64,000 bases of DNA, taken from the NCBI GenBank assembly GCA_044348005.1, contig JBIKTR010000005.1:11991-75990 (forward strand). The letters are read 5' to 3'. Each line of letters opens with the position of its first letter. Position 1 is the first letter of the stretch. Below the pieces are notes generated by a model. The model had not been told where the DNA came from. It ran no database searches and saw only the letters and a list, made by a program, of their open reading frames with translations. Below are positions 2,755 to 63,460 of the stretch, in pieces. The stretch is from Vampirovibrionales bacterium (GTDB taxonomy: Bacteria; Cyanobacteriota; Vampirovibrionia; Vampirovibrionales; JAJTHC01). A program made the translations under genes and the position numbers.

Positions 2755-5505
2755 TTATTCGTCGAACTCGCCAAGGGAATTCAAGAGCTTATCGTCGTCT
2801 CCAGTTAACAATGCGACAACTTGAACACGTAAATCATGTAAAAGAAGACGCAAACCTTTTCTCTTTTTATGTTCAGTGGCAGTTGAACCTCTGGAGCCTA
2901 TTCGGCCGGCTTCACCCTGTGAAAGATCCGTGAGGCTTTCCACATTAGTTCGACCTGCATCCTTGAGATTAAAAGGAATAGGCTCGGCAGACGGAATAAC
3001 CTGTGGCGTTACTCTCTGCACAAGGTCGCCCCCCCTTCCTGCTGGTGCTTGTGCTCCTGCTCCTGCTCCTGCTTGTGCTACTGGTGCTGTTCCTGCTCCT
3101 ACTGTTGGTGCTTGTCGTGCTGGTGTTGCTGATGCTGGTGCTGGTGTTGCTGATGTTGGTGCTGGTGCTGGTGCTGGTGTTGCTGATGTTGTTGCTTCTT
3201 TTATTGCTTGTCGTGCTTGAACAACTTTGTCTGAATAATCAGGTTGGGCATCAAGATATTTCTGTGCGTAACGTTGTTCTATACGACTGTTATTATGCTT
3301 TTTGCCGAATTCGGCAAGGGCAAATAGTGCATCTTCATTTGCTGAGTCACGCTTTAAAAGTGACCTAACTGCCTTGTAGGCTTTTACGCATTCTTTCTTA
3401 TTACCAGTTTGTGAAGCCTGATCATATTGGCTTTTCGCCAAGGTGACAATACTTGTTCGTATAGATGTTAAATCAGAAGATAGCCTATGATTATGAATAA
3501 GAGGATCCAACGAGCTGTTAGTCGCTTGCTCAATGGATTGGATTACTCTCACTACTTCAGCTTCCATTTGTTCAGATACTTTAATGGCTTTAGAGTACTC
3601 TTTTTTTGCTACATGTAGCCCAGCTAGTTTTTCTAATACATTTCGTACTTGTGTATTGGGACTATTAACCAATGCTAAACGTTCCTGTAATAAAGCTATA
3701 GCTCTATCAGGGTTTGTTGATTTATATAAGTCGGCCAGATCTTCTAGTAATATAAACCGAAGATTTGTATGATTGTTCTTTGTAGCAATTGCTTGAACAA
3801 GGGTTTCGTAGAAGCCAATTTTATTAGCCCCTCTAAGATCATTTGGAATTAACTTATCTAATTTTCCTTCACCCGAACTCAATGTAATTAAAATATCATT
3901 AATCTGTTTCAGTAAGGGTTCTTTATCCAATTTTGGATTTCTTTGAAGGGCGGACACAGCTACCTTAATTGCACGATAAGGCTCGCCTGCTTGTAAAACT
4001 TTAGCAACCCTTGCAGACGCCCTTGAGGCATCCTGAGGTAAAGCTTGGGCTGATTTGCCTGGTGACAATAGGCCTGCTATTGGCTTTGGTAGTAGGCCTA
4101 CCGTTTCTGGTCGTGCTGGTACTGGTGTTTTAACTCTTGGTGCTACTGGTGATGCTGGTAGTGATGCTGGTGTTGTTGATGCTGGTGGTCCTGTTGGTGC
4201 TTCTGCTCCTGCATTTCCTGCTCCTGCTCCTGATGCTGTTGGTGTTCCTGCTGATGCTTGTGTTCCTGCTGATGTTGTTGGTGTAGGTGCTGGTGTTGCT
4301 GGTGGTTTTGGTGCTGCTGATGCTGATGCTGTTGGTGCTGATGGTTTTGCTGTTGTTGCTGGTGAGTCTAGGTTTATATTTCGACTCAAAGTGTCAGGGA
4401 GTTCTTGCCCTGACACTTGAAGAGTTGGTATTGAATTTGGTCTAAATGGTTCTTGATTTTGCAGAATAACATCCCCATTAAGTGGGATTGGTTCTGCATT
4501 TGCTCGTTGGAACCCTAGATTAACATCTCCTGCTCCTGCTGTTGTTGCTAGTGCTGGTGCTGGTGTTGCTGATGCTGTTGGTGGTGCTTGTACTGGTGCT
4601 ACTGGTGCTACTGTTCCTGCTCCTGCATTTCTTGCTGGTGCTACTGGTTTTGGTGAGTCTAGGTCTATATGTTGACTCAAAGGGTCAGGGAGTTCTTCCC
4701 CTGACACGTGAAGAGTTTCTGTTGCATCTGATTTAATACTAGGAACAAATTCTTTTTGAATTGTCATTGATTCAAATGGTTTATCACTGTTGACTAATTG
4801 CAGATTAACATTCCCCTTAAGTGGGATTGGTTCTGCATTTGCTCGTTGCAACCCTAGATTAACATCTCCTGCTCCTGCTGGGGCTGCTGGTGCTTCTAGA
4901 TTGGAGAAGCTATTACCACCGCCACTACCACCACCACCACCACCACTGTGGCGAGCTGCTGCAGCTGGGCGCGGGGTAGTAACTTGTTTTACAGCTTCGT
5001 CAACAGAAGCAAGAGGAGGCGTCGGCCCATCTACTTCTCTTTTTAAAAAGCCAAAGGTTTTTTCCAAAAACTCTCCGACGTCTTGACGTCTCCACAATAA
5101 TAGGCCCGCCGTGGTAAGGGCAGCGGCGCCTATGGCCACGTTTCTCACCGTATGGTCTTCTTCTTGAGGCGGTGTTGTTTTGGTGGGTGCTGTGACTTTC
5201 GCAGGTGGCACGGTTTTTTGAGCCACAGGGTGGTGTTCGGCAGGTGGCGTCAAAGGACTCGTCGCCGACGAAGACGAAGAGTGAACCTCTGCCCCAGTCT
5301 TCAAATCAACAGGCGAAGGCGTGGGGGCATAGTTTAATGCGGTAGAATCCACAACGGGCGCTGGGCCTGTGTTCCTCGGGTAAAGATCCGCAGAAGATGC
5401 TCCTTGATTCAAAAGCGGTAACGTGGATGCCAAGGGGGGGGGGGGGGCGAACGCAGATTGTGGCGCTTGAGTAAACGAAAAACTATTCATATTGTTCATA
5501 GCCAT
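2755..5505 (-). CDS. Large Pro/Ala/Thr-rich repetitive protein (putative surface or secreted)
   Basis: 916 aa. Low-complexity PAPAPT/ATPAP runs are encoded by (GCTGGT)n-type DNA repeats. Two tandem ~115-aa repeats (GAGDVNLG.QRANAEPIPL...) are present. The C-terminal part looks helical, with a TPR-like composition. Confidence 0.6.
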   Translation of the reverse strand: MAMNNMNSFSFTQAPQSAFAPPPPLASTLPLLNQGASSADLYPRNTGPAPVVDSTALNYAPTPSPVDLKTGAEVHSSSSSATSPLTPPAEHHPVAQKTVPPAKVTAPTKTTPPQEEDHTVRNVAIGAAALTTAGLLLWRRQDVGEFLEKTFGFLKREVDGPTPPLASVDEAVKQVTTPRPAAAARHSGGGGGGSGGGNSFSNLEAPAAPAGAGDVNLGLQRANAEPIPLKGNVNLQLVNSDKPFESMTIQKEFVPSIKSDATETLHVSGEELPDPLSQHIDLDSPKPVAPARNAGAGTVAPVAPVQAPPTASATPAPALATTAGAGDVNLGFQRANAEPIPLNGDVILQNQEPFRPNSIPTLQVSGQELPDTLSRNINLDSPATTAKPSAPTASASAAPKPPATPAPTPTTSAGTQASAGTPTASGAGAGNAGAEAPTGPPASTTPASLPASPVAPRVKTPVPARPETVGLLPKPIAGLLSPGKSAQALPQDASRASARVAKVLQAGEPYRAIKVAVSALQRNPKLDKEPLLKQINDILITLSSGEGKLDKLIPNDLRGANKIGFYETLVQAIATKNNHTNLRFILLEDLADLYKSTNPDRAIALLQERLALVNSPNTQVRNVLEKLAGLHVAKKEYSKAIKVSEQMEAEVVRVIQSIEQATNSSLDPLIHNHRLSSDLTSIRTSIVTLAKSQYDQASQTGNKKECVKAYKAVRSLLKRDSANEDALFALAEFGKKHNNSRIEQRYAQKYLDAQPDYSDKVVQARQAIKEATTSATPAPAPAPTSATPAPASATPARQAPTVGAGTAPVAQAGAGAGAQAPAGRGGDLVQRVTPQVIPSAEPIPFNLKDAGRTNVESLTDLSQGEAGRIGSRGSTATEHKKRKGLRLLLHDLRVQVVALLTGDDDKLLNSLGEFDE
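5434..5447. repeat. Homopolymeric G14 tract (poly-C on coding strand) inside the 5' end of CDS 2755..5505
   Basis: Direct read of 14 consecutive G. On the coding strand it encodes PPPP at about residues 20-24. Confidence 0.9.
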
Positions 5506-6338: not shown

Positions 6339-6498
6339 GAGTAAGGCTCCTTTTCGTTGTCATGCTAACATCAACACGTTTTTCCCTCGTCGTGTTTGGT
6401 ATAAGTATGACAAAGTTTTTCGCCTCTTCATAGTGTATAAAACCCACTATTTTACGAATTTTTCGCTTGGAAGGGTGTTGTTTTTATGCTATTTTCAG

Positions 6499-6564
6499 AA
6501 GAACTCTAAAAAGAGTTGCTAATACGCAACACCCCCATTCTGTAACGAAAGGAGGTGAGGCAAA
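6499..6564. repeat. Inverted repeat, left copy (pairs with 8342..8401). It contains a near-palindrome TTGCTAATACGCAA and the perfect SD AAAGGAGGTGA
   Basis: About 60 bp, roughly 88% identical to the reverse complement of 8342..8401. Confidence 0.8.
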
Positions 6565-6633
6565 ATGGATCATATTCAAGATATTTTAATCTTGATGAGT
6601 ATCCTCCTTCTAGCGTCTAAACTAGGAGGATAG
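6565..6633 (+). CDS. Micro-ORF, 22-aa hydrophobic peptide (MDHIQDILILMSILLLASKLGG) behind a perfect SD; candidate type I toxin-like or leader peptide
   Basis: The ATG lies 7 nt after GGAGGTGA. The predicted peptide is strongly hydrophobic. A homologous inverted copy exists at 8285..8341. Confidence 0.35.
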   Translation: MDHIQDILILMSILLLASKLGG

Positions 6634-6719
6634 CGTCGCAAAAGAGTTCTCAAGTTTACAAGACTTGGGGACTCTCCCTTTTTGTATTGTGACAAAGCAA
6701 ACGCGCTTTGTCAATCCCC

Positions 6720-7721: not shown

Positions 7722-8284
7722 AACATGAAAACCCTAAAACGTCTCCTTTTTCAGGGGGAAGCCTCGTATTTTCGACACACAGAAACCCCTTTTTTGGCCC
7801 ACGTTTATTCGTTTAAGTGGGCTTTTTTAATGTTTTGTTAAGCTTTGTAACATACGAGCAATATTCACGATTATGAAGACTTTATTAAAGTGAAGAGACA
7901 CCCAAAAGAAAACCTCTTCAAAAACCCCTCATCCCCAACAATACCTTCTTCTTCCTTCACTTCATTCCCCACCCCTCATTTACGAACCTATCCTTCCCCC
8001 TTCTTTATTTTTTAGTTCAGCACTTCACCCGTTTATGTAAACACTTTTTTCTAGGCACGCCACCTATATTTGTTGTGTTTACTGATGTACAGGCCTTTCC
8101 ACGGCGAAGGGTCTGTACCCTCATTCCCCCCTTACCTTAATGGTTTACCCCGCTTTTACAAACACGAATCCCACGCTTTTCGTGATGTTTCAACTTTACT
8201 CTCCCTCTCTCTTTTCTCTATGCCTATGTCCCCCTGTAATGTGTATTCATTACAGGCTTTTTATTGGGGAAACTCTTTAAAACA

Positions 8285-8341
8285 CTAGAGGATACAGAGA
8301 AATAGCGAAAATAACAGAAGTATGGTTTCTGACATAATCAT
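8285..8341 (-). CDS. Micro-ORF, 18-aa hydrophobic peptide (MIMSETILLLFSLFLCIL) behind a perfect SD; paralog of 6565..6633
   Basis: Reverse-complement reading of the right IR copy gives AAAGGAGGTGAGCTAAA-ATG. The composition is like Ibs-type small hydrophobic toxins. Confidence 0.35.
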   Translation of the reverse strand: MIMSETILLLFSLFLCIL

Positions 8342-8401
8342 TTTAGCTCACCTCCTTTCTGTTACAGAACGGGGGTGTTGCTATATTAGCAACCCTTTTA
8401 T
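8342..8401. repeat. Inverted repeat, right copy (pairs with 6499..6564). It contains the palindrome TTGCTAATATAGCAA
   Basis: Reverse complement aligns to the left copy through the SD and the ATG. Confidence 0.8.
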
Positions 8402-8491
8402 TTCAGGTTTTTAGTAGGCTAGCATAAAGCCTTACGTGATTCAAGAACCATGACCCCCACTTTCAAGCGTGGAGCCTTTGTGCTACACTAA

Positions 8492-10102
8492 ATGCCACAA
8501 GCCCCCCTTAATGAGGAACCTGCATCCATGCCTTTTTGGAAAACCAATTGGAAAATTACAAAAATTACGTTTGCGGTATGTACTCTATTATTGAAGGGTT
8601 TTACAACTCTATTTATTTATTCATTCCTATGGAAATTTAAACCAAAACCTCATTATAAAACCTTTTGGGGAAGTGTTGGAAGTTTTGTGCTTACAGCACT
8701 TTTAGTGCTTGTCGTTTTACTTGTTTCTTCTTGGGTTGTAACCTCTGATTTCATAAGCTCTTTAAACTTTTTACACTTGACTACTTCAAATGATGTGAAT
8801 GTCTTTTTAACACTTTTGGTATACGCCTTGACTCTTGCTGTTTTAATACAAACCCTTGACTCTCAACGAGCCTCTGCAGAACGGACGGCTCGTATGGAAA
8901 TGGCGAAGGTATTGACGGAGGCCTTTAGTCATAGTGAAATGTTTGAAGCTATTGAGTATTTCTTGCAGGTGTCACCTTATCTAGTTGATAAAAATGGAAA
9001 AGGTCGTCAAGTTTATATTGAAGAAATCAACGAAAAACCCGAAACTAAAAAATACCGTTACCGAATACTGACCACCTTACACCATGCCGAACGGCTTTAT
9101 AAAACTGAAAAAGCAGATACAGCCTTATTTACGAGTTTAATAACGCCTGACATTGTAGAAGTGGCTTTATGCTTGTACCAACTGGACGACTATATGAAAG
9201 ACGTCGATAAACCTGTTTATGAAATGGTGTATAGGGTGTTTGAAGACATTCGCACCTCTTATCTCGCACCTTATGCGAAAGCCGTTCAAAATAAAAAAGA
9301 AATCAATTCCAAGAAATTACAACACATTCGTCGTATTTTATGTAGTCTTCAAAAGTGGGACAAAGAATGGGGTGATGAAGGCGATATTATCTTAACAGAT
9401 GTTGATTTAATTATGGTTTATTTAATTGATGAAAAGTACAGCTTGGTTGCTTATAAAAATATTTCAAACGAACTCAATCTTCTTGATAAACGATTTGAAG
9501 CCTTAGCTAAGGATTCTAAAAGTACAAAGCCTTTTAAGCGATTTGCGGATCTTTATTTTTTGCGTGCAGATGGGAAATGTGAGCAAAAAGATTATAAAGG
9601 TGCCATTCAGGATTACACTAAATCCATTGAACTAAATCCTAAGAATATCTATACATATAGTAATCGAGGAATTAATCAAGTTAGATTAGGAAACTACCTC
9701 GAAGCTATAAAAGATTTTGATAAAGCGATTATATTAGACCCTAAATTCATTGGAGGGTATTGTAACCGAGGGATTGCCAAATACAACTTAGCACAATATG
9801 AAGAAGCGATAGACGATTATAACCAAGCTATTGAACTCAACCCTGAAGATGACGATGCCTACTACTTGCGAGGGCTTGCCAAAGACGACTTAGAAAAATA
9901 TGAAGAAGCTGTTGTTGATTACACCAAAGCCATTGATCTTGACCCTCAACATGCCGATGCGTACAACAATCGAGCGTTGACTTATCAGCAAATGGCTCAA
10001 CAGGCGAGAGCTAAGGGTAATCACACTGAAGGGAAAGATCTTGAATCTAAAGCCCAAGCCGATTTTGCTCAAGCAAAACGACTTGAATCTGAAAAACAAT
10101 AG
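8492..10102 (+). CDS. TPR-repeat protein with N-terminal transmembrane segments
   Basis: Multiple 34-aa TPR-like units (…AIQDYTKSIELNPKN…, …AIDDYNQAIELNPED…). The gene is AT-rich, and the true start may be at 8528. Confidence 0.6.
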   Translation: MPQAPLNEEPASMPFWKTNWKITKITFAVCTLLLKGFTTLFIYSFLWKFKPKPHYKTFWGSVGSFVLTALLVLVVLLVSSWVVTSDFISSLNFLHLTTSNDVNVFLTLLVYALTLAVLIQTLDSQRASAERTARMEMAKVLTEAFSHSEMFEAIEYFLQVSPYLVDKNGKGRQVYIEEINEKPETKKYRYRILTTLHHAERLYKTEKADTALFTSLITPDIVEVALCLYQLDDYMKDVDKPVYEMVYRVFEDIRTSYLAPYAKAVQNKKEINSKKLQHIRRILCSLQKWDKEWGDEGDIILTDVDLIMVYLIDEKYSLVAYKNISNELNLLDKRFEALAKDSKSTKPFKRFADLYFLRADGKCEQKDYKGAIQDYTKSIELNPKNIYTYSNRGINQVRLGNYLEAIKDFDKAIILDPKFIGGYCNRGIAKYNLAQYEEAIDDYNQAIELNPEDDDAYYLRGLAKDDLEKYEEAVVDYTKAIDLDPQHADAYNNRALTYQQMAQQARAKGNHTEGKDLESKAQADFAQAKRLESEKQ

Positions 10103-20834: not shown

Positions 20835-21680
20835 ATGATAATGCTCCCGACTCCTTCTTGGGAAACAACCAAAGTACTTATAGGACGCAGTTGTACTGTT
20901 TTTATGGGGCTTTCTTCCTTATTGATTCTTCTGTCTTTTCACCCCGATGCGGTACAAAAACAGTGGGATGCCACGATTCAAGGGAAGAGCTCCGCTTTTC
21001 AGGACGGCTCCGCTTGGGTGAATGCTTCTCAAGGTAAGGGCATGCCCCCTTTAACGGCTTCTGCTGTTGCGTCTAATTCCACTAGGCGTCTTTCATTAGA
21101 AGAAAACACACGTCTTACTCCATATGAAGAACTGCTTCAAGGGCCTAATTGGTTTGAAGAATTGGCCACAAGTATTGGTCAGAATTTGCAGGAAACCCTT
21201 GGGGGTAAAGGTACACCTGTTCCCCTTCCAAGTATGCCGTCCTCGTCGTCTGTCGCTCAAGGAACCGCTCAAGTGGGGGTTTCTAAAACGGCAGGGCCCT
21301 TTACTTCTGTGCCGATGTCTGTCAAGCCAAAAGCCTTATTTATTCAAGTCAAAATTAACGACAAAGCCACTGGGCATTTTATTTTAGACACAGGTGCCAC
21401 CTACACCACCATTTCAAGACGCATGGCACGTCAGCTGGGCTTAGATTTAGAGCAAAGCGAAAAAATTGCGATTACCACTGCCAATGGCGAATTAGATGTT
21501 CCCAAGGTAAGGCTAAAAACTGTGGCCGTTAATGGGATTGAAGCGTCTAATGTGGAAGCCACCGTCATGGATTTTGGAGAAGGCAATAGTTTTGCGGGCT
21601 TATTGGGCTTAAGTTTTATTCAACACTTTAAGTTGACGTTGGATCCTAAAAATGGACAAATGATTTTTGAACCTATTTAG
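20835..21680 (+). CDS. Secreted retropepsin-like (clan AA) aspartic protease domain protein
   Basis: N-terminal hydrophobic segment. DTGAT active-site motif (ILDTGATYTTIS) in a C-terminal domain of about 120 aa. Confidence 0.55.
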   Translation: MIMLPTPSWETTKVLIGRSCTVFMGLSSLLILLSFHPDAVQKQWDATIQGKSSAFQDGSAWVNASQGKGMPPLTASAVASNSTRRLSLEENTRLTPYEELLQGPNWFEELATSIGQNLQETLGGKGTPVPLPSMPSSSSVAQGTAQVGVSKTAGPFTSVPMSVKPKALFIQVKINDKATGHFILDTGATYTTISRRMARQLGLDLEQSEKIAITTANGELDVPKVRLKTVAVNGIEASNVEATVMDFGEGNSFAGLLGLSFIQHFKLTLDPKNGQMIFEPI

Positions 21681-21716
21681 CTTCTCTCTTTAAAACACTA
21701 TGTATCTTTCGAACAC

Positions 21717-21878
21717 TATAGAAGGCTCTGCAAAAGTCTATTTTGCTTTGTTCCTCCTCCCTTAGGGAGGAGGCTAGGAGGAGGGACACCAGCTCTGACG
21801 GGGCATCCCGAATCCCTCACCCCAACCCTCTCCCTAAGGGAGAGGGAGTAAAACGCCCTTTTGCAGAGCCTTCTATAG
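21717..21878. repeat. GC-rich REP/MITE-like element with 21-bp terminal inverted repeats (CTATAGAAGGCTCTGCAAAAG) and internal CCCTCTCCC…GGGAGAGGG hairpins
   Basis: Terminal arms at 21717-21737 and 21858-21878. Internal palindromes cctcccttagggaggagg and ccctctccctaagggagaggg. Confidence 0.75.
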
Positions 21879-22074
21879 AAAAAAGCAAAATAAAAGGCGT
21901 CACTGCTTGAACAGGACGCCGCTCTCTTATGCAATGTGTTTTCAAATCGAAGATTTAACATCGTCTGAAAAACGAGGGGAAGGGAAAATTAAAAGTTAAG
22001 TCTTTAAAAAGGTCAATTTATGCATTTGATTAAAGCCGACCCTGAACATCAGTTAGTGTTTTTTAGGGGACTAG

Positions 22075-22889: not shown

Positions 22890-24041
22890 ATGAAAGAAAT
22901 TATTTTTAGGAGTCTTAAAATCGTGACATCCGCAGAAGCCCTCACGTTGCTTCCTTACGAAAAAAGTACCTTGCCTCAACAGCAAACGACTGCAACGCCC
23001 CTGCTCTTACAAGTATTTGAAGGAAAAGCCCTTAAACGCCCCCCTGTGTGGATGATGCGTCAAGCGGGGCGTTACATGCACGAATACCAAGCCGTGCGTC
23101 AACATTATAGCTTTTTAGAAATTTGCAAAACACCTGAAGTCGCCGTGGAAGTGACCTTGCAACCCCTTCGTGCCTTTGGCTTTGACGCCTCCATTATTTT
23201 TTCCGATATTCTCATTCCCCTTGAAGCCATGGGCTTAGACTTAAGCTTTAGCGATTCACACGGCCCTGCCTTTGCCAATCCCTTACGCACCGCAAGCGAG
23301 GTCGACGCCTTTCACCCTGCCGATGTGCAAGACACCTGCGGGTTTTTGGCCGAAGCCTTGACGATGATGCGTCGTGAACTCACAGGAACAGGCATTGCAC
23401 TCATCGGTTTTGCAGGAGCACCGTGGACGCTTGCCAGTTACGCCCTAGAAGGCAAAAGCTGGAAGACAGGGCAACATACCAAAGCTCTTCTTTTGGAAGA
23501 TCCACAACGCTTGCACACCATTTTACAACGCATTACTGAGATGCTAATTCCTTACCTGTGCATGCAAGTCGACGCAGGCGCCGAAGTGTTACAACTCTTT
23601 GACACATGGGCAGGCTTGGTGCCCACGCGTTACTATAACGACTTTGTGATGCAGTACCAAAACCAAGTGATTGAAGGCGTCAAAGCCAAACATCCGCATG
23701 TGCCTATTGTGTTGTTCGTTAAAAACAGCCGGGGCTTGCTTGAAGTCATCGGGCAAAGCCCTGCGGATGCCATTAGCATCGACGATTTGACGTCTTTAAG
23801 CGACGCTCGCCAAGCTTTAGGCGCTTCTCGCATTTTACAAGGCAACTTGGATTCAAGCTTTTTGTTTAGCCATAATGAATCGGCGCTTGTGGCGGAAGTT
23901 CATCGCTTGCTTGAAGAAGGAGGCCCTTCGCATTACATTTTTAACTTAGGTCATGGGGTGTTACCCAAAACCCCTCGTTCAAACGTCAAGCGGGTGGTGG
24001 AAACCATCAAGGCTTGGTCATCAGTCCATCACCCCTTATAA
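22890..24041 (+). CDS. hemE: Uroporphyrinogen decarboxylase
   Basis: PVWMMRQAGRY signature and the overall URO-D layout. Confidence 0.85.
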   Translation: MKEIIFRSLKIVTSAEALTLLPYEKSTLPQQQTTATPLLLQVFEGKALKRPPVWMMRQAGRYMHEYQAVRQHYSFLEICKTPEVAVEVTLQPLRAFGFDASIIFSDILIPLEAMGLDLSFSDSHGPAFANPLRTASEVDAFHPADVQDTCGFLAEALTMMRRELTGTGIALIGFAGAPWTLASYALEGKSWKTGQHTKALLLEDPQRLHTILQRITEMLIPYLCMQVDAGAEVLQLFDTWAGLVPTRYYNDFVMQYQNQVIEGVKAKHPHVPIVLFVKNSRGLLEVIGQSPADAISIDDLTSLSDARQALGASRILQGNLDSSFLFSHNESALVAEVHRLLEEGGPSHYIFNLGHGVLPKTPRSNVKRVVETIKAWSSVHHPL

Positions 24042-33843: not shown

Positions 33844-33880
33844 GGGCGTTGGACTCCTTTAGCATTCGCGAAAACAAAAT

Positions 33881-33992
33881 GCCTTGTTCCTTCTCCCTTT
33901 GGGAGAAGGTTAGGATGAGGGAAACACTCGCTAAAATGGGTATCGCCGATTCCCTCACCCCAGCCCTCTCCCAAAGGGAGAGGGAGCAAAGC
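33881..33992. repeat. GC-rich REP/MITE-like element copy (CCTCACCCCAGCCCTCTCCCAAAGGGAGAGGGAG core)
   Basis: Shares the core with copies at 21815, 40390 and 56880. Also contains a ttctccctttgggagaa hairpin. Confidence 0.7.
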
Positions 33993-34081
33993 TACTTTTA
34001 CAGCGCTTTTGTACTTTACTACTCTAGCACAAAAATAACTTCACTGGGCTTTATGCCACTAAGAAATAAGGATGATGTTTC

Positions 34082-36437: not shown

Positions 36438-38240
36438 TTGAACTATAATAAACCCATGTACACTTCTTCCGCGCCCCACATTGTGCTTGACGCCACCGCC
36501 CTGCCGTTTGCCCTGCAAACAGGCACCCATAGCCACGAAGACTGGCGACTCATGCTCATTTCCCTCAACTGGATTCACGAACGCTATAGCCAGCATCCGG
36601 AAAATATGGGCAAGGTGTACTGGAATAGTCGCACGGTGCAAGGCTTTATGACCCTGCTTCAACTTCACCCCAAGCTCATTCGCCAGTGGAGGCAAGACGA
36701 CCCGCGACTCGAAGAGCTGCTACACCATTCACCCGTGGCCAAAGGCATTTGGCAAGCCTTCCACGCCCTAGAAGCTTCAGCTCATCGCCAAGTGGAAAAA
36801 CTCCCCTTTCACCTGCAAGACAAACTCTACCCGCTCGCGCGATATTTAGAACATCGTTCCACGATGTTTGAACTCAATCGCTATGTTGAACAGGGCGCGA
36901 CTCGTACGATGGTGCATAGCCTTGGCCTGCCTATTTCAGCCGAACACGCCGACACTGTTGACGTCATTACCGTGGCGGATGTTTCCCTGCTTCAGTTGCT
37001 TGAATCCGCCACCACCATTCGTGAGTTGCCCAAAAAACAAGCCCTGCTCAAACAACAATTAAGCTATGTGCATGAAGGGCACCGATTGGTGAGTTGGGAC
37101 GCTGAAACGGCGGATCTCCTCAAAGAAAACCTCCCCCACTTGTACGACGTTCACGTGAATGTGGCTCCACCGTGTTGGCTTATGGAAATGCCGGCAAGCT
37201 TGTCTCAAGGCACTTCAGCAGATGCCCCAGAACGCCTTGAAAAGGCCTTTCAAGCCTGGTGTGTGCAGCATCGCTGGGTGAAGACGAAACATGAACCCAC
37301 CCTAGTGGAAGCGGATGAAGCGTCCCAAGGGGGTGAAACGAGCATTGAATCCGCGTTAGAATCCATGAAAAGTAGCTTGTCACTTTCTAGTGAAGATATT
37401 AAAGAACTGCTTGAATTGGCGGAAGATCCAGATATTGAAGTCGTGTTGCATTATCAAGAAGCTGAATCAGATACGCCAGAAGCACCTGAGCGCATCGATG
37501 CCCTAGAAGCTAAAGAAACGAAAGATTTAACGAAAGAAAATAAAGAATTCGCTAAAGAAAATAAAGAAATGAAAGAAAATAAACTTTATTTTATTTCGTC
37601 TTCTGAATACCTGATTATTTCTTTGAGAGATGAAGCGCATGAAGATTTTGAAAGCACCCTAAGTTTGGCGTTGATGGCACTTTTTAATGCCTATGAATAT
37701 GAACCTGAAGAAGCCGATGGGGAAGGGGTGGGCATTCAACGCTTGGCCTACCACCTGATTCGCCAAAACGGGCGAGCGGTGGCCCAGCAAGGCCAACGGC
37801 GCTTAATGATTTTTTATAGCCCAGGGCAGTTTTTACACATCCGTGCGGAAGTGAAGAAGCATCCGCTTTATGCGTATGTGGCGGAACGTGTTATTTTAAT
37901 GCCTTCTACAGCGTATAATAAGGCCATGTTTTACCCAAAGGCGCTGGCCTTTTGCGTCGTGCCAACAGGTAAAACCTTCTACCCTACCATTTTAGAAGCC
38001 ATGGCTTATTCGCTCCCGATTGTGGCGCCAAAACGCCTTTCTTTTGAAGTTTTGGCCAAAGAAGGAGGCTTCTATTTTAACCCAGAACGCCCCACAAAAC
38101 TGCCCACCGTGCTTTACAAACTTTCCCAAGCCGAGACAAATCGAAGCAAGCGTGCTAAACTAATGGCACGACGTACGGCTGAAACGCGTAATTGGCAACG
38201 CTTTGGTGAACAATTATGGAAGGCCTACGAGTTACAATAG
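36438..38240 (+). CDS. Glycosyltransferase family 4-like protein carrying an in-frame repeat-element insertion
   Basis: C-terminal GT4-type EAMAYSLPIVA motif. Low-complexity insert EAKETKDLTKENKEFAKENKEMKENK at nt 37508-37620. Confidence 0.5.
   Translation: MNYNKPMYTSSAPHIVLDATALPFALQTGTHSHEDWRLMLISLNWIHERYSQHPENMGKVYWNSRTVQGFMTLLQLHPKLIRQWRQDDPRLEELLHHSPVAKGIWQAFHALEASAHRQVEKLPFHLQDKLYPLARYLEHRSTMFELNRYVEQGATRTMVHSLGLPISAEHADTVDVITVADVSLLQLLESATTIRELPKKQALLKQQLSYVHEGHRLVSWDAETADLLKENLPHLYDVHVNVAPPCWLMEMPASLSQGTSADAPERLEKAFQAWCVQHRWVKTKHEPTLVEADEASQGGETSIESALESMKSSLSLSSEDIKELLELAEDPDIEVVLHYQEAESDTPEAPERIDALEAKETKDLTKENKEFAKENKEMKENKLYFISSSEYLIISLRDEAHEDFESTLSLALMALFNAYEYEPEEADGEGVGIQRLAYHLIRQNGRAVAQQGQRRLMIFYSPGQFLHIRAEVKKHPLYAYVAERVILMPSTAYNKAMFYPKALAFCVVPTGKTFYPTILEAMAYSLPIVAPKRLSFEVLAKEGGFYFNPERPTKLPTVLYKLSQAETNRSKRAKLMARRTAETRNWQRFGEQLWKAYELQ
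37508..37620. repeat. AT-rich ACGAAAGAAA-type palindromic element inserted in frame inside CDS 36438..38240
   Basis: Units gaaacgaaagatttaacgaaagaaaataaagaa, then a complementary arm tttattttatttcgtc. Confidence 0.7.
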
Positions 38241-38802: not shown

Positions 38803-40074
38803 TTGACAGCTTTCCTTCAACCATTAAACGGCCGGTTTATAGGCGTGATGAGTGGCACTTCGCTTGATGCCGTGGATGTTGTGGTGGCGGATTTAGCCCT
38901 TTTGCCCGTGCAGAAAACGAAAAAAGATAAAGAAACGAAAGACTTAACGAAAGAAACTAAAAATAAAATATCTTTATTCTCTTTAGTTTCTTTCGTTTCT
39001 TTATTTTCTTTCGTTGAACGAAATATAAAACATTATGCGCACCCGTACCCTGAAAATCTAAAGAATCAAATACTCGATTTGCAAAAGGGCTCACGCCTTT
39101 CTTTAGCCCACTATGTGGACGTAGAAAAAGCACTGAGCCTGCTGTACGCTGAAGCGGTTGAAACGGCGCTAAGGCAGTGGCAGATTGAAAAATCGACTGT
39201 TGTGGCGGTGTGTAATCACGGCCAAACCGTGTTTCATCAACGGGATGAAACGGGTGATATGGGGACGATTCAACTGGGGGATGCGTCTCGCTTGGCTGAA
39301 ACACTCGGCATGCGAGTCGTCGCCGATTTTAGGCGCGGAGACATTGCCGTAGGGGGTCAAGGCGCGCCGTTACTGCCGTTTTATGACGCTTTACGCCTAA
39401 GTCAAGCCGAACAAACGATTGTGGCGCACAATTTAGGGGGCATTAGTAATGTAAGCGTTTTGCCCGCGCATGCCCTTGAAATGGATCCTTTTGCCTTTGA
39501 CACGGGACTGGCCAACCTCTGGATCGATCGTGCGATGCAGGCGTATTTTGGCAAGCCCTTCGACGAAGACGGCTCAATCGCGCGGCAGGGGAAACCGATA
39601 GAGGCACTGGTGACGGCTATTTTAGCGCATCCGTTTCATCAACAACACCCCCCCAAATCAACGGGGCGAGACGATTTTAGTGATGAAGCGTTGCATGCCC
39701 TTGTCCGTCAATACGCCAACGGGTCGAGCAAAGAAGCCATTGTCGCCAGTTTTACACACGCCACAGCGCTAAGCATGGTCAAGGCGTATCAAGCTTTTAT
39801 ACTGCCCCGCGTGGGCCACGTGGATGCCATTTTCATGAGTGGGGGAGGGGTTGATAACCGCTATTTAATCGAGTTATTTGAAACCTACTGGCAGCAGGAA
39901 GGGCTGGGTGTTTTGCCTGAACTGAAGCGAACGGAAGCGGTGGGCATCCCCAACAAAGCGAAAGAAGCACTGGGGTTTGCGTGGTTGGGTTGGGCCAAAT
40001 GGCACGGCTTACCGAACAATGTGCCGAGTTGCACAGGGGCGGGGGCCTATGTGTCTGGTGGCGTTATCTACTAA
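38803..40074 (+). CDS. anmK: Anhydro-N-acetylmuramic acid kinase with an in-frame repeat-element insertion
   Basis: GRFIGVMSGTSLDAVDVV N-terminus. Start assigned to an in-frame TTG just after the HAD stop; the ORF track starts at 38707 and the start is uncertain. The KETKDLTKETKNKISLFSLVSFVSLFSF insert is encoded by a palindromic element. Confidence 0.7.
   Translation: MTAFLQPLNGRFIGVMSGTSLDAVDVVVADLALLPVQKTKKDKETKDLTKETKNKISLFSLVSFVSLFSFVERNIKHYAHPYPENLKNQILDLQKGSRLSLAHYVDVEKALSLLYAEAVETALRQWQIEKSTVVAVCNHGQTVFHQRDETGDMGTIQLGDASRLAETLGMRVVADFRRGDIAVGGQGAPLLPFYDALRLSQAEQTIVAHNLGGISNVSVLPAHALEMDPFAFDTGLANLWIDRAMQAYFGKPFDEDGSIARQGKPIEALVTAILAHPFHQQHPPKSTGRDDFSDEALHALVRQYANGSSKEAIVASFTHATALSMVKAYQAFILPRVGHVDAIFMSGGGVDNRYLIELFETYWQQEGLGVLPELKRTEAVGIPNKAKEALGFAWLGWAKWHGLPNNVPSCTGAGAYVSGGVIY
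38912..39035. repeat. AT-rich ACGAAAGAAA-type palindromic element inserted in frame inside anmK
   Basis: aaagaaacgaaagacttaacgaaagaaactaaaaataaa paired with tttattctctttagtttctttcgtttctttattttctttcgtt. Confidence 0.75.
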
Positions 40075-40129: not shown

Positions 40130-40470
40130 TAAATGGTTGCACCAGCAGGCGTCCAAGCACTAAATCCGAGCGGGTGAGCGCACTGCGACCCCCGAGCGAT
40201 TTTGCGGACGTCGTGCAACGAGAATGATGCGAGGAGGTGGGTCAAAAGGGGGTGGATTTTCAAGGAGGGGGAAATGAGGGAGGAGAAACGCAATACGTCC
40301 TCCCTTCCCCCTCCTTGAACCGCCTTTGGGGGTTTGGGGAGTCTTTGGCGGCGCAAAGACCCCCAAGCACCAGCGTTAAAAGGAGCTAGAAAGCCACCCT
40401 CACCCCAGCCCTCTCCCAGAGGGAGAGGGGGCTTTGTTCCTTCTCCCAGAGGGAGAGGGAGTAAAACCCC
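40130..40470. repeat. Composite GC-rich repeat block: a ~150-bp unit (40231-40385, about 90% identical to 51209-51360) plus two CCCTCTCCCAGAGGGAGAGGG hairpins
   Basis: Direct alignment of both loci. ORFs predicted inside (40129..40366) are judged artefacts. Confidence 0.8.
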
Positions 40471-43747: not shown

Positions 43748-43930
43748 CTTTTCTTTAGTTTAGCATAGTTTTTCAAAAAATACGCTATAAAACGAAAGAA
43801 AATAAAGAAACGAAACAAACGAAAGAAAACGACCTAAAACTAAAGAAAAACGAAAGATAACGAAAGAAAGCTAAACAAAACGAAAGAAAACTATAAAAAA
43901 TAAATAAAACGAAAGAAAATAAAGAAGAAG
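43748..43930. repeat. Intergenic copy of the AT-rich ACGAAAGAAA palindromic element (tandem degenerate 11-mers)
   Basis: aaacgaaagaaaataaagaaacgaaacaaacgaaagaaaacga…cgaaagataacgaaagaaag…aaacgaaagaaaataaagaa, with the complementary arm ctttagttt at the 5' end. Confidence 0.8.
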
Positions 43931-45336: not shown

Positions 45337-45640
45337 AGATGAACTCGGCCACGAACTCGGGGACTATGTTCCGCCTAAGCTGACGATTGGTCAAGTGATT
45401 AAGGCACATCGTGAATGCGAAGACTGGACGCTTGAAGAAGCGGCAAAAAAGTTGGGTATTTCTAAACAAGCCTTGCACCAGTACGAAACAGGTCAAAGGC
45501 TCCCCAGTAGTGAACAAACCATTCGCTTGGCGGAAGCGTTGGGATCTTCCCCTGAAGCGTGGCTGATTTACCGCATTGAAACTGAACTTGAAAAGCACGG
45601 CATGTTTTACAAAGTTCGACTAGAAAGACGTCCAGCCTAA
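45326..45640 (+). CDS. higA: HigA-like HTH (XRE) antitoxin
   Basis: HTH segment TLEEAAKKLGISKQALHQYETGQRLP. Confidence 0.65.
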   Translation: MTTKDELGHELGDYVPPKLTIGQVIKAHRECEDWTLEEAAKKLGISKQALHQYETGQRLPSSEQTIRLAEALGSSPEAWLIYRIETELEKHGMFYKVRLERRPA

Positions 45641-45654
45641 AGTCTAAAAACATA

Positions 45655-45750
45655 CCGTCATTGCGAGCGTAGCGTGGCAGTCTGTAGAGATTCCGTAAGT
45701 GGTGAACAGATTGCTTCACATGCGTTCGCAATGACAACGCTCCACTTTTA
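45655..45750. repeat. Imperfect palindrome (arms GTCATTGCGAGCG / CGTTCGCAATGAC). Its first 24 nt recur, inverted, at 51112..51135
   Basis: ccgtcattgcgagcgtagcgtggc versus the reverse complement of gccacgctatgctcgcaatgacgg (23 of 24 identical). Confidence 0.7.
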
Positions 45751-45786
45751 AGCTAGAATATATCTAAACTAAAGGAGGGCGTTTAT

Positions 45787-49653: not shown

Positions 49654-50763
49654 ATGTTTGACGATCCAGTAAAACCGCACACCTCACGTTCTTCAGATGA
49701 AGCCTACCGTCAAGCAGGGGTGGACTTAGAGCGTGCGAAAGATGTGGTTGAAATCGCTAAAACCGCGACTCAAAAAAGCCAGCGACCCGACATCACCCTC
49801 GGCGGTATTGGTGGATTTTCAGGAGCGTTTCGGATTCCTAAGGGGTATGAATCCCCCGTTTTGTTGGCGGCTACAGACGGCGTGGGAACGAAGCTTGAAC
49901 TGGCTCAACAGTTGGGCCTGCACGACGGCATTGGCATTGATTTAGTGGCCATGAGCGTTAATGACCTACTGACCCAAGGCGGTGAACCCTTGGTATTTTT
50001 AGACTATTTCGCCACAGATCGTATTGAACCAACTCGTTTAGCCACGATTTTAGAAAGCATCGCAAGTGGGTGTGCCGAATCGAATTGTGCATTGGTGGGG
50101 GGGGAAACCGCGGAAATGCCTGGATTTTATGCCAAGAATCAATATGATTTGGCGGGTTTTGCCGTGGGCGTGGTGGAAGAAGCGAAGCTTTTACCGCGTA
50201 GTGAGGCGATGCGCGCTGGAGACGTCTTGCTGGGTGTGGCTTCTAGTGGGCCTCACGCCAACGGATATTCACTAATTCGCAAAATTTTAAAAGACGCCCG
50301 AATCACTGCTGACGTCCCCCTTCCACACAGTGAATTTTCCCTTTACAGCGCCTTGCTAAAGCCGACTCGCCTGTATGTAAAACCGATTTTAGCCCTGCTT
50401 AAAACGCATGCTGCTGCCATCAAGGGCATGGTCCATGTTACAGGCGGTGGCTTTCAGGACAACCTTCCGCGTATATTGCCAGCACATCTAAAGGCCGTGG
50501 TGGATCTTTCTTCGTGGAGCTTACCGCCCGTGTTTCGCTGGCTAGCCCAAACAGGGGGGCTTGATGCCTTGAGCTTATTACACACGTTTAATGCGGGTGT
50601 GGGCTTTGTTTTGTGTGTTTCAGGTGAAGAAGCCGATGGGGTTGCTCAGCAACTTTCAGCGATTTTAGAAGGGGAATCTGTCATTCGCTTGGGCCACCTC
50701 GATGAAAAAACCCCTCAAGACACGGCCATTTCCTTTTTACACGTCGATTCATTTACGTTCTAG
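49654..50763 (+). CDS. purM: Phosphoribosylformylglycinamidine cyclo-ligase (AIR synthetase)
   Basis: AIRS N-terminal and C-terminal domains (GGIGGFSG, DGVGTK). Confidence 0.85.
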   Translation: MFDDPVKPHTSRSSDEAYRQAGVDLERAKDVVEIAKTATQKSQRPDITLGGIGGFSGAFRIPKGYESPVLLAATDGVGTKLELAQQLGLHDGIGIDLVAMSVNDLLTQGGEPLVFLDYFATDRIEPTRLATILESIASGCAESNCALVGGETAEMPGFYAKNQYDLAGFAVGVVEEAKLLPRSEAMRAGDVLLGVASSGPHANGYSLIRKILKDARITADVPLPHSEFSLYSALLKPTRLYVKPILALLKTHAAAIKGMVHVTGGGFQDNLPRILPAHLKAVVDLSSWSLPPVFRWLAQTGGLDALSLLHTFNAGVGFVLCVSGEEADGVAQQLSAILEGESVIRLGHLDEKTPQDTAISFLHVDSFTF

Positions 50764-50874
50764 TGTGTTCGATAGATGAAACGGTCTATGGTCTCTTCGT
50801 TGTCGCGACGATTGGTTATGTATAGTTTTTTTCATTTAAGTGGAGTCTAGAAAATCATTGTATTTTAGGGTTTC

Positions 50875-51365
50875 TAGCTCCATTTAACACTGGTGCTTGG
50901 GTTTCTCGTTTGTTTTTATAGCTGGTGCTTGGAGACCTTTGTGCCGCCAAAGGTCTCCAAACCTCTAAAGGCGGCTTAAGGGGCGGCGGGGGGAGGGACG
51001 TGTTACGTCCTCCCTCCCCCCAGTACGCCCCCCTTAAGAATCCCCCATCCCCCCCTCCCTCCCGTTCCAAACCACGAGGCAAAAATAAACACACAAGGTC
51101 TATAGAAATTGCCACGCTATGCTCGCAATGACGGGCAAAAAGCTTGCCGACAACGCACTAAATGCGAGGCTTCCGAGACATTTTGCCCACGGCAGGAACG
51201 AAGATAGGGCGAGGAGGTGGGGATTCAGGGGGGATTTTCAAGGGGGGACGAAGGGGAGGAGAAACGCAATGCGTCCTTCCCCGTCCCCCCTTGAACCGCC
51301 TTTGGGGGTTTGGGGAGTCTTTGGCGGCGCAAAGACCCCCAAGCACCAGCGTTAAACGGAGCGAG
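50875..51365. repeat. About 480-bp composite palindromic repeat block: an inverted diverged copy (50882-51075) and a direct copy (51209-51360) of the ~150-bp GC-rich unit, flanking a ~130-bp core
   Basis: 51290-51360 is the reverse complement of 50885-50960. Shares the unit with 40231-40385. ORFs predicted inside are judged artefacts. Confidence 0.8.
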
Positions 51366-51434
51366 AAAACCAAACATACAATGATTTTCTAGACTGCTAC
51401 TGTTTAAATAGAAAATACTATAGCTTTATCGTGT

Positions 51435-56840: not shown

Positions 56841-56873
56841 AAAGGGATGCTTTTACGAGCATCCCTTTTTTTG
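56841..56873 (+). terminator. Rho-independent terminator after icd
   Basis: aaagggatgc-ttttacg-agcatcccttt hairpin followed by a T7 run. Confidence 0.7.
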
Positions 56874-56914
56874 TGTTTACTCTCTCTCTCACTTAGGGAG
56901 AGGGAGTAAACACA
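56873..56914. repeat. REP-like hairpin copy (GTGTTTACTCTCTCTC…GGGAGAGGGAGTAAACAC)
   Basis: Shares the GGGAGAGGGAGTAAA core with the 21840 and 40450 copies. Confidence 0.7.
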
Positions 56915-56985
56915 AAAGGCAATTCACAGAACTTTCTTAGCACAAAAAAAACTGGAGCCGTCTTTAAGCCTTTGTTACCTTCGAT

Positions 56986-58590: not shown

Positions 58591-58742
58591 GGGCGCTGTT
58601 TTTCGAGTCGTGTAGGCTTAAAGCCTAATGTTTAAAGTAATGAATGGTTCTATTATAACGGTTTTTTTGGTTTTGGTGTGTGGGCTTCTTTTTGCGATAT
58701 AATAGTAGCACTGTTTCTAACCCGTTGTAAAAGGGGCCTGCC

Positions 58743-63134: not shown

Positions 63135-63460
63135 GCGTTTTCCTATTTTCCCTAAGTATTACACACTTATAAGCATTAAACACTTTGGCGTCCTTTTTTA
63201 TGCTATAGGGTTCGAAAAATAAAACGGTCTATGGTCTCTTCGTTGTCGCTACGATTTTTTTGTTTGGTTATGTACGTCTGTGTACACGCCCGCACAAAAA
63301 AATCTAGGCTCCTAGAATAGCCTCATCGCCTGTTTCATCTTTGGAACCCTATAGTGCCGTTTCTAAGACCTTTGATTCGCACTTTTTTCTGTGTTTGGTG
63401 TTTAATAAGACTATAATCGCTTTTTAAAGGAAATACTTGTCAAAAAAAAAGAGGTTTTTT

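What the first reader, a model, noticed from the sequence alone, without database searches (positions are those of the whole stretch)
21717..21878. Discrete 160-bp element with 21-bp perfect terminal inverted repeats and internal GC hairpins (MITE-like)
CTATAGAAGGCTCTGCAAAAG at 21717 is repeated exactly, inverted, at 21858. Between the two lie the hairpins cctcccttagggaggagg and ccctctccctaagggagaggg. Perfect TIRs of this length suggest recent mobility of a non-autonomous element that shares its core hairpin with the REP-like family at 33881, 40390 and 56873.
Basis: seen in the sequence. Interest (0 to 1): 0.5.

Follow-up and report, generated by a model that had tools for sequence, protein, structure and literature searches.

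The report
IS5-family MITE in a Vampirovibrionales genome
The 163-bp palindromic element is a small non-coding transposon (a MITE), most likely moved by an IS5-type transposase encoded elsewhere; it is an ordinary kind of bacterial mobile DNA, described here in a little-studied lineage.

Summary
CTATAGAAGGCTCTGCAAAAG lies at 21716-21736, one base earlier than reported, and its exact reverse complement lies at 21858-21878. Two perfect GC hairpins sit between them.

The 21-bp "TIR" breaks down into three parts: one chance-complementary base, a palindromic TATA target-site duplication, and a 16-bp true TIR, GAAGGCTCTGCAAAAG.

The TIR is not unique. About 57 exact arms turned up, nearly all in five to six Vampirovibrionales MAG species. 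They bound 45 elements, whose interiors form at least three unrelated multi-copy MITE families. The GC-hairpin family seen here has 11 complete copies.

A nested insertion, compared with three paralogous empty sites, shows a net gain of the element plus 4 bp at a TATA.

The same ends bound 1129-1134-bp insertion sequences that encode a 313-aa IS5-family DDE transposase. Three of these copies are 99.9% identical but sit in different flanks. A related Vampirovibrionales MAG keeps an 80-bp stub of this IS.

The element is therefore an IS5-family MITE, not a REP/RAYT or IS200/IS605 derivative.

Not shown: the IS in this same genome, and an empty site for this particular copy.

Verdict: a new member of a known kind, of modest interest.

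The parts
21717..21720 (.). Left TATA, one copy of the duplicated 4-bp target. C21716 pairs with G21878 only by chance.
   Evidence: All 45 TIR-bounded elements have TATA on both sides, while the base outside it varies. The empty and filled sites of the nested insertion in L038 differ by the element plus one TATA.
21721..21736 (+). Left terminal inverted repeat, GAAGGCTCTGCAAAAG (16 bp)
   Evidence: The consensus GAARGCTCTGCAAAAG is shared by MITEs and by the IS5-family IS copies.
21737..21752 (+). Left subterminal spacer, TCTATTTTGCTTTGTT. It partly pairs with 21847-21857.
   Evidence: Alignment A2 and the folds.
21753..21773 (.). GC hairpin 1: CCTCCTCCC-TTA-GGGAGGAGG
21772..21827 (.). Central stem arms GGCTAGGAGGAGGGA (21772-21786) and TCCCTCACCCCAACC (21813-21827), around a variable 26-nt loop
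   Evidence: Inverted repeat I1, the folds and alignment A2.
21826..21846 (.). GC hairpin 2: CCCTCTCCC-TAA-GGGAGAGGG
21858..21873 (-). Right terminal inverted repeat, CTTTTGCAGAGCCTTC on the + strand
21874..21877 (.). Right TATA, the second copy of the target duplication
21687..21715 (.). Left flank: two tandem remnants (TCTTTAAAACACTAT and TCTTTCGAACACTAT) of the terminus of a second TATA-flanked MITE family. The element sits at the TATA that bounds them.
   Evidence: Direct repeat D1. The same terminus, GTGTTCGATAGA..., starts the repeat family at 50760 and 63203 and abuts TIR elements in L075, L102 and L104.
33858..34017 (+). Older, degenerate copy of the same GC-hairpin MITE. Its right TIR matches 12 of 16 bases and its left TIR is eroded.
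40391..40470 (+). Two GC-hairpin units in a different order, with no TIRs (a rearranged fragment)
56873..56915 (+). A single diverged hairpin unit just after an intrinsic-terminator-like hairpin, with no TIR
45620..45760 (+). Degenerate copy of another MITE family of the same TIR superfamily (GTCATTGCGAGCG...CGCAATGAC core)

Best explanation
[quoted passage not shown] It spans 21721-21873 (153 bp), or 21717-21877 with its duplicated TATA target.

It has no coding capacity. It carries the 16-bp ends GAAGGCTCTGCAAAAG that an IS5-group DDE transposase recognises. That transposase is supplied in trans by 1.13-kb insertion sequences with the same ends. It would cut the element out or copy it, and insert it at a TATA, duplicating those 4 bp.

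Because TATA is a palindrome, it lengthens the apparent inverted repeat to 20 bp. One further complementary base pair, C21716 with G21878, is chance.

The interior is a passenger module made of two GC-rich hairpins plus a central stem, so the whole element can fold into a rod or a cruciform. It sits between convergent genes, 36 bp after the stop codon of an aspartyl-protease-like ORF, and next to the end of another TATA-flanked repeat.

Shown:
- the ends and the TATA on both sides;
- multicopy status in related genomes;
- a 4-bp net gain at TATA;
- an IS5-family IS with the same ends.

Inferred:
- that this IS family mobilised this copy;
- that the host genome carries the IS;
- any effect of the hairpins on transcripts.
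For: 1. Perfect ends, no chance expectation.
2. About 57 exact TATAGAARGCTCTGCAAAAG arms, nearly all in Vampirovibrionales MAGs JBJTUB01, JBILSS01, CANGYO01, JBIKNF01, JAJTHC01 and CAZDMD01.
3. The window is 80-83% identical over kilobases to CANGYO01 and JBILSS01 contigs.
4. There are 45 TIR-bounded elements, all with TATA on both sides. Four are the IS copies. The other 41 are 44-315 bp, apart from one 1267-bp stretch of MITE fragments. The GC-hairpin family has 11 complete copies (87-209 bp) at unrelated flanks.
5. L073 carries a 97% identical copy at a different site.
6. The nested insertion L038 4385-4534, compared with paralogous empty sites in L095, L035 and L111, goes from gggtcTATAgggg to gggtc|TATAGAAG...TTTCTATA|gggg.
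7. Tandem copies share a single TATA.
8. Full-length elements of 1129-1134 bp have the same ends and a 313-aa ORF.
9. That ORF matches Pfam DDE_Tnp_1 and DUF772 and NCBIfam NF033581, IS5 family, at 294 bits against a cut-off of 140.
10. It is 44.6% identical to E. coli IS5 InsH, and the three DDE-motif blocks (VDATxxEAP, GDSGY, VEHPFRxIK) align with those of InsH.
11. Three IS copies are 99.9% identical in three different flanks.
12. An 80-bp IS stub lies in Vampirovibrionales MAG locus L049.
13. Three Logan contigs all end inside the element at window 21755, and a JGI contig starts at 21719. Breaks like this are expected at a repeat.
14. Degenerate copies of two families lie elsewhere in the same window.
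15. MITEs that share TIRs with IS5-family IS are an established class (PMC4596501).
Against: - The TIR occurs only once (one pair) in the 64-kb window.
- No transposase gene was found in the window or next to any TIR in the MAG loci.
- The IS copies come from short metagenome contigs of unknown host. The only link to Vampirovibrionales is the 80-bp stub in a MAG, which could be mis-binned.
- No empty allele of this locus was found, although the collection searched lacks the source sample.
- The TSD rests on one nested insertion plus the TATA-sharing tandems. Because TATA is palindromic, three readings cannot be separated: a 4-bp TATA duplication, insertion at the centre of TATA without duplication, or a 2-bp AT duplication.
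Confidence: 0.9

Rival explanations
1. REPIN-like element. The two inverted GC hairpins would be REP sequences mobilised as a doublet by a RAYT (IS200/IS605-like Y1 transposase), and the outer 21-bp repeat would be incidental.
For: - The hairpin units also occur without TIRs, at 40391-40470 and 56873-56915.
- A similar unit occurs in an unrelated proteobacterial MAG (L026).
- The stems keep perfect complementarity across five sequence variants.
- The doublet has REPIN-like inverted symmetry.
Against: - Every intact doublet copy found is bounded by the IS5-type TIR and TATA.
- The same TIR bounds unrelated cores and a DDE transposase gene.
- Insertion adds 4 bp at TATA, whereas Y1 transposases make no duplication (established knowledge).
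- No Y1 or RAYT gene was seen, though this was not searched systematically.
Confidence: 0.05
2. Stowaway-type MITE of the IS630/Tc1-mariner superfamily, with a TA duplication and TIRs that start TAGAAGG.
For: The ends read TA-TAG...CTA-TA, which looks superficially like a TA duplication. Neisseria Correia elements have TATAG ends with a reported TA duplication (from memory).
Against: The empty site is TATA, not TA. A TA duplication would leave TATATA on one side, and that is not seen. The full-length partner encodes an IS5-family transposase, not an IS630-family one.
Confidence: 0.02
3. A locus-specific functional palindrome, such as a transcription terminator, an attenuator or a structured small RNA gene, rather than mobile DNA.
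For: - The predicted fold is very stable: RNA -92.9 kcal/mol (z = -10.3) and DNA -51.6 kcal/mol (z = -9.0).
- The element lies between convergent genes.
- The stems show compensatory changes.
Against: - It is multicopy at unrelated flanks in several genomes.
- There is no Rfam match.
- No T-tract follows it on either strand, and only one weak terminator-like site was scanned, no more than in shuffles.
- A secondary, co-opted role is not excluded.
Confidence: 0.03

Closest known systems
IS5 of Escherichia coli (IS5 family, IS5 group; transposase InsH)
   Same: - The partner IS is a 1.13-kb element with a single transposase ORF, against 1195 bp for IS5.
- Its transposase is 44.6% identical to InsH, with aligned DDE blocks.
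- Both have 16-bp terminal IRs with a similar layout: IS5 GGAAGGTGCGAATAAG against GAAGGCTCTGCAAAAG.
- Both show a 4-bp gain on insertion (for the IS5 group this is from established knowledge).
   Different: - It is less than 50% identical to any named IS5-family transposase in plasmid records, so it is a new IS.
- Its target appears to be strictly TATA.
- The object in the window is the non-coding derivative, not the IS itself.
IS5-family-related MITEs: Porphyromonas gingivalis BrickBuilt, MITE239, MITE293 and MITE700, and the Neisseria meningitidis ATR element (parent ISNme1, TIR GAGACCTTTGCAAAA)
   Same: These are short non-coding elements whose TIRs match resident IS5-family IS and whose interiors are unrelated to the transposase gene. 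Their TIRs are of the same type...CTTTGCAAAA (PMC4596501).
   Different: - The host lineage differs (Vampirovibrionales / Melainabacteria).
- The internal modules differ (a GC-hairpin doublet).
- Here the TATA flank is uniform, whereas BrickBuilt shows variable or absent TSDs.
REP/REPIN elements with RAYT transposases
   Same: GC-rich palindromic units arranged as an inverted doublet that folds into a long hairpin. Both are intergenic and multicopy.
   Different: The copies here are bounded by DDE-type TIRs plus a 4-bp duplication, and they share ends with an IS5 transposase gene. No RAYT association was found.
Neisseria Correia elements (CREE/NEMIS)
   Same: Elements of about 100-160 bp with TIRs beginning TATAG, an AT-rich target and no known dedicated transposase inside; often found at gene ends (from memory).
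   Different: There is no sequence similarity beyond TATAG. Correia elements are reported to duplicate TA, whereas here the gain is 4 bp at TATA and the partner IS is identified.

Membership tests
MITE (bacterial, DDE-transposon derived) | Terminal inverted repeats | tested here: met
   16 of 16 bp are complementary, or 21 of 21 with the TATA and one extra base.
MITE (bacterial, DDE-transposon derived) | Target-site duplication flanking the TIRs | tested here: met
   This copy has TATA on both sides, as do all 45 elements. A nested insertion compared with three empty paralogues shows a 4-bp gain at TATA. An empty site for this copy itself was not found.
MITE (bacterial, DDE-transposon derived) | Small size and no transposase coding capacity | tested here: met
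   The element is 153 bp, or 161 bp with the TSDs. The only overlapping ORFs (81 aa on the - strand, 55 aa on the + strand) run through the repeat. The 81-aa ORF had no Pfam hit; the 55-aa ORF was not scanned.
MITE (bacterial, DDE-transposon derived) | Multiple copies at unrelated sites | tested here: met
   Met in related species' MAGs: 11 complete copies of this family and dozens of the superfamily. In this genome there is one intact copy and two degenerate copies in 64 kb, plus assembly breaks inside the element. The genome-wide count in this organism was not obtainable.
MITE (bacterial, DDE-transposon derived) | An autonomous element with matching TIRs that encodes the transposase | tested here: met
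   IS copies L121 89-1217, L128 615-1743, L122 472-1605 and L135 68-1198. Their presence in the same genome as the window was not shown. An 80-bp stub lies in related MAG locus L049.
IS5 family, IS5 group (for the partner IS) | DDE transposase of the IS5 type (DDE_Tnp_1 with an N-terminal DUF772 domain) | tested here: met
   Pfam PF01609 at 5.7e-24 and PF05598 at 8.2e-23. NCBIfam NF033581 at 294 bits against a cut-off of 140. 44.6% identity to InsH, with the DDE blocks aligned.
IS5 family, IS5 group (for the partner IS) | Length of about 1-1.5 kb, short terminal IRs starting Ga/g, 4-bp duplication | tested here: met
   The IS copies are 1129-1134 bp and their IRs start GAAG. The family criteria themselves are from established knowledge (ISfinder) and were not re-derived here.
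REP / REPIN (RAYT-mobilised) | Association with a RAYT (Y1 HUH transposase) gene flanked by the repeats | not tested
   No systematic Y1 search was run. None of the ORFs examined next to the repeats was a Y1 transposase.
REP / REPIN (RAYT-mobilised) | Insertion without target duplication and without DDE-type TIRs | tested here: not met
   Intact copies have TIRs and a 4-bp gain at TATA.
IS630/Tc1-mariner (Stowaway-like) MITE | TA target duplication | tested here: not met
   The empty site is TATA and the filled site has TATA on each side, which is incompatible with a simple TA duplication.

The most novel reading that the evidence does not exclude
The GC-hairpin doublet might not be an inert passenger. 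It could be a separately selected, structure-dependent module, such as a REP-like binding site or an RNA 3'-end stabiliser, that spreads among bacteria by being captured between IS5 ends. That would make these elements chimeric vehicles for a functional hairpin.

Three observations hint at this:
- Five stem variants all keep perfect complementarity.
- Units occur without TIRs.
- A similar unit occurs in an unrelated proteobacterial MAG.

The same TIR also appears in predatory or endosymbiotic Alphaproteobacteria, namely Micavibrio, Rickettsiales and Holosporales, which would imply cross-phylum transfer.
Probability: 0.12. Interest if true: 0.5.

Novelty: new member of a known kind. Interest (0 to 1): 0.25.

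Why it matters
MITEs derived from IS5-family elements are well known, so the mechanism is not new.

The practical value lies in annotation and assembly. These repeats break metagenome assemblies of Vampirovibrionales, as seen here in four independent assemblies. They also generate spurious ORFs, such as the 81-aa ORF at 21716-21961.

The work defines a previously undescribed IS5-group IS and its strict TATA target. It also shows that a single TIR type has captured several unrelated cores in this lineage. That makes the lineage a convenient natural system for studying how MITE families arise and how arrays build up by re-use of TATA flanks.

Tried and rejected
- **Native terminator or ncRNA.** Rfam gave no match at gathering thresholds over the whole window. 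The promoter and terminator scan showed nothing above shuffles.
- **Transposase next to the TIRs in the 115 genome loci.** An all-vs-all comparison of ORFs found no multicopy ORF. Ten ORFs adjacent to solo TIRs were ordinary genes such as CydB, MotA and an SDR. The 1267-bp TIR pair in L095 is a pile of MITE fragments, not an IS.
- **Viral contigs.** A scan for the TIR gave 0 hits.
- **Empty allele of this locus.** The 26-mer TTCGAACAC-TATA-GAAAAAAGCAAAA gave 0 hits in the metagenome collection. That collection evidently lacks the source sample, so the result is uninformative rather than negative.
- **Orthologous empty sites from related MAGs.** L094 against window 8150-8630, and L033 against window 58420-58840, have flanks too diverged or rearranged to read a junction.
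- **L041 as the orthologous locus.** Rejected. Only the element and a 12-nt repeat-derived flank match.
- **Linking the IS to the window's samples.** The transposase look-ups returned other samples only.
- **My degenerate genome-scan pattern.** It was meant to catch the 33881 copy as well, but it was mis-specified at one position. This did not affect the outcome.
- **First regex census of hairpins.** It mis-registered loops and was replaced by an explicit palindrome scan.

Full report
**Observation.**
The window reads C-TATA-GAAGGCTCTGCAAAAG at 21716-21736 and CTTTTGCAGAGCCTTC-TATA-G at 21858-21878. This is a perfect 21-bp inverted repeat, one base to the left of the coordinates given. With up to three mismatches allowed, these are the only two matches in 64 kb, and none occurred in 100 dinucleotide-preserving shuffles.

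Between the arms lie two perfect hairpins, CCTCCTCCC-TTA-GGGAGGAGG (21753-21773) and CCCTCTCCC-TAA-GGGAGAGGG (21826-21846). There is also a pair of imperfectly complementary arms, GGCTAGGAGGAGGGA and TCCCTCACCCCAACC.

The whole unit folds as a rod as RNA (-92.9 kcal/mol, z = -10.3). As DNA it folds as a cruciform with two side hairpins (-51.6 kcal/mol, z = -9.0).

The sequence is real. A JGI contig (3300042515, Ga0453190_0000421) and three Logan contigs carry identical sequence.

**Setting.**
The element lies 36 bp after the stop of a 281-aa ORF with an aspartyl-protease domain (20835-21680, + strand). To its right are minus-strand ORFs, followed by hemE (22890-24041).

Just right of the element, read on the minus strand, GGCGTC-N13-GACGCC (21921-21897) is followed by a T-rich run (21896-21879). 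From the sequence this looks like the terminator of the minus-strand gene. That is my inference; the scan tool does not consider 13-nt loops.

There are no Rfam matches anywhere in the window.

**Is the TIR unique?**
No. About 57 arms have the form TATAGAARGCTCTGCAAAAG. Nearly all of them lie in MAGs labelled Vampirovibrionales: JBJTUB01, JBILSS01, CANGYO01, JBIKNF01, JAJTHC01 and CAZDMD01.

The window itself is 80-83% identical over kilobases to CANGYO01 and JBILSS01 contigs, so it comes from a related Vampirovibrionales organism (lineage).

All three Logan contigs stop at the same base inside the element (window 21755), and the JGI contig starts at 21719. Breaks like this are expected when an assembler meets a repeat.

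**Anatomy of the family.**
Pairing left and right arms gave 45 bounded elements. Their interiors fall into unrelated groups:
- a large cluster of 149-315 bp, which includes one 1267-bp stretch of MITE fragments in L095;
- a GTCATTGCGAG...CGCAATGAC group of 135-142 bp;
- a GC-hairpin group of 87-209 bp, to which the window copy belongs (11 complete copies);
- a group of 1129-1134 bp, which is the IS described below;
- a few single elements.

Alignment of the GC-hairpin group shows conserved ends, two hairpins and a variable central loop. L073 holds a 97% identical but truncated copy at a different flank.

Across the loci the hairpins occur in five stem variants: CCCTCTCCC, CCCTCCCCT, CCCTCTCC, CCTTCTCCC and CCTCCTCCC. 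Each is perfectly complementary to its partner arm, so changes are compensated.

The window also holds:
- a degenerate copy of the same family at 33858-34017, whose right TIR matches 12 of 16 bases;
- TIR-less hairpin fragments at 40391-40470 and 56873-56915;
- a degenerate copy of the GTCATTGCGAG family at 45620-45760.

**Target site.**
The base outside TATAG varies between copies, but TATA is invariant on both sides. One element (L038 4385-4534) is nested inside another repeat whose uninterrupted paralogues (L095, L035, L111) read ...aaaacgggtcTATAggggcgaagcccc.... The filled site reads gggtc|TATAGAAGAC...GGTTTCTATA|ggggc.

Insertion therefore adds the element plus 4 bp at a TATA. A plain TA duplication would leave TATATA on one side, and that is not seen.

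Adjacent elements share a single TATA (L047, L025, L122, L135). The real TIR is thus 16 bp. The palindromic TATA extends the apparent repeat, and the C/G pair outside it is chance.

Because TATA is a palindrome, three readings cannot be separated: a 4-bp TATA duplication, insertion at the centre of TATA without duplication, or a 2-bp AT duplication.

**The autonomous partner.**
A first metagenome scan, for the reconstructed empty site of this locus, found nothing. The second scan, for the TIR, gave 12 loci. Four of them carry a long element with the same ends and TATA flanks:
- L121 89-1217 and L128 615-1743, both 1129 bp;
- L120, truncated by the end of its contig;
- L122 472-1605, 1134 bp.

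L135 68-1198 (1131 bp) was added later.

Each encodes one 313-aa protein. It matches Pfam DDE_Tnp_1 and DUF772 and NCBIfam NF033581, "IS5 family transposase", at 294 bits against a cut-off of 140. It is 44.6% identical to InsH of E. coli IS5, and the three DDE-motif blocks (VDATxxEAP, GDSGY, VEHPFRxIK) align with those of InsH.

E. coli IS5A has 16-bp IRs, GGAAGGTGCGAATAAG, of similar layout.

The L120, L121 and L128 copies are 99.9% identical but sit in three different flanks, which indicates recent transposition. The three IS subtypes are 77-88% identical and keep the same ends.

No named plasmid-borne IS exceeds about 49% identity. The protein has thousands of IS5-family homologues, most of them on stand-alone contigs of about 1.1 kb.

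A Vampirovibrionales MAG locus (L049, CANGYO01) retains the first 80 bp of this IS: the TIR, the leader and 11 codons, 93.8% identical to the L135 copy.

I could not place an intact IS in the window's own genome.

**Mechanism.**
The best-supported account is trans-mobilisation by the IS5-group transposase. It would bind the 16-bp ends and insert at TATA with a 4-bp duplication. The GC-hairpin core is a passenger.

Insertion next to the remnant terminus of a second TATA-flanked repeat family (21687-21715) fits the pattern of arrays built by re-using flanking TATAs.

A secondary role for the rod structure in the 3' UTR of the upstream gene, as an RNA stabiliser or terminator, is possible but untested.

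**Comparison and novelty.**
MITEs that share TIRs with resident IS5-family IS are established. Examples are P. gingivalis BrickBuilt and MITE239/293/700, and N. meningitidis ATR with ISNme1 (TIR GAGACCTTTGCAAAA) (PMC4596501).

REPIN/RAYT and IS630-type readings fail on the 4-bp TATA gain and on the identity of the partner transposase.

I found no paper describing these elements in Vampirovibrionales, but that literature search was limited.

The finding is a new member of a known kind: well supported, useful for annotation and of modest interest.

Noticed in passing
window 63203-63354 and 50760-50813; remnants at 21687-21715 and 8274-8293; L075 2706-2790: A second MITE-like family of about 152 bp has its own TIR, TATAG[G/T]GTTCGAWAGATRAAAC, and is also flanked by TATA. 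It often abuts the IS5-type MITEs and shares one TATA with them (for example L075). It is widespread in the Vampirovibrionales loci. Its transposase is unknown.
   Followed up: partly
L010, L048, L072 (Rickettsiales / Alphaproteobacteria UBA6149), L067 (Holosporales), L089 (Micavibrio OY762938.1): The same TIR, exact or one mismatch off, occurs in MAGs of predatory or endosymbiotic Alphaproteobacteria. L067 has one mismatch to the consensus. In L089, L048 and L010 the TIR has nearby partner arms or its own internal sequence. L048 7526-7569 is a bare TIR-CTTG-TIR hairpin. This could reflect cross-phylum transfer of the IS or MITE, or bin contamination.
   Followed up: no
L026 3484-3560 (uncultured proteobacterium MAG): A GC-hairpin unit very like the MITE core (CCCCTCACCCTAGCCCTCTCCC...CTCCCTTCTCCC-TCT-GGGAGAAGGGAG) occurs in an unrelated genome, with no IS5-type TIR seen next to it in the ~260 bases read.
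   Followed up: no
L041 1005-1035, L113, L054: A subvariant of the GC-hairpin MITE carries an extra hairpin of about 20-22 nt (CACGCCTCGCC-TATG-GCGGGCTACGC) inserted into hairpin 1.
   Followed up: no
L073 3549 onward; L033 27-144: Copies of the GC-hairpin MITE are interrupted at the same internal point (CCCCA|CCATGGTCGAAAAAG...) by another sequence. This suggests a further insertion element with site preference inside the MITE.
   Followed up: no
window 40131-40396 and 50865-51376: Another repeat family (130 nt at 88% identity between 40267-40396 and 51243-51372) is shared with many Vampirovibrionales loci (L033, L056, L080, L113, L009). It lies directly next to the TIR-less hairpin pair at 40391-40470.
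   Followed up: no
window 3007-4900: Dense 9- and 12-nt periodic repeats, plus 97-198-nt direct repeats at 92% and 71% identity respectively, probably lie within a repetitive protein-coding gene. They show weak similarity to L055 1483-1655.
   Followed up: no
window 37507-37583, 38920-38961, 43771-43923: A-rich short repeats (AAAGAAAATAAAGAA, AACGAAAGAAAA) recur in three places. They may encode lysine/glutamate-rich low-complexity protein, or they may be intergenic.
   Followed up: no
window 21716-21961 (- strand) and 21743-21910 (+ strand): ORFs of 81 aa and 55 aa run through the MITE, for example ...SLSLRERVGVRDSG...LLQSLL. They are almost certainly spurious and are the kind of repeat-derived hypothetical proteins that populate databases.
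   Followed up: partly
window 6483-6714 and 8339-8555: Another short repeat is shared between two places in the window and with L091 and L031 (80-90% identity).
   Followed up: no
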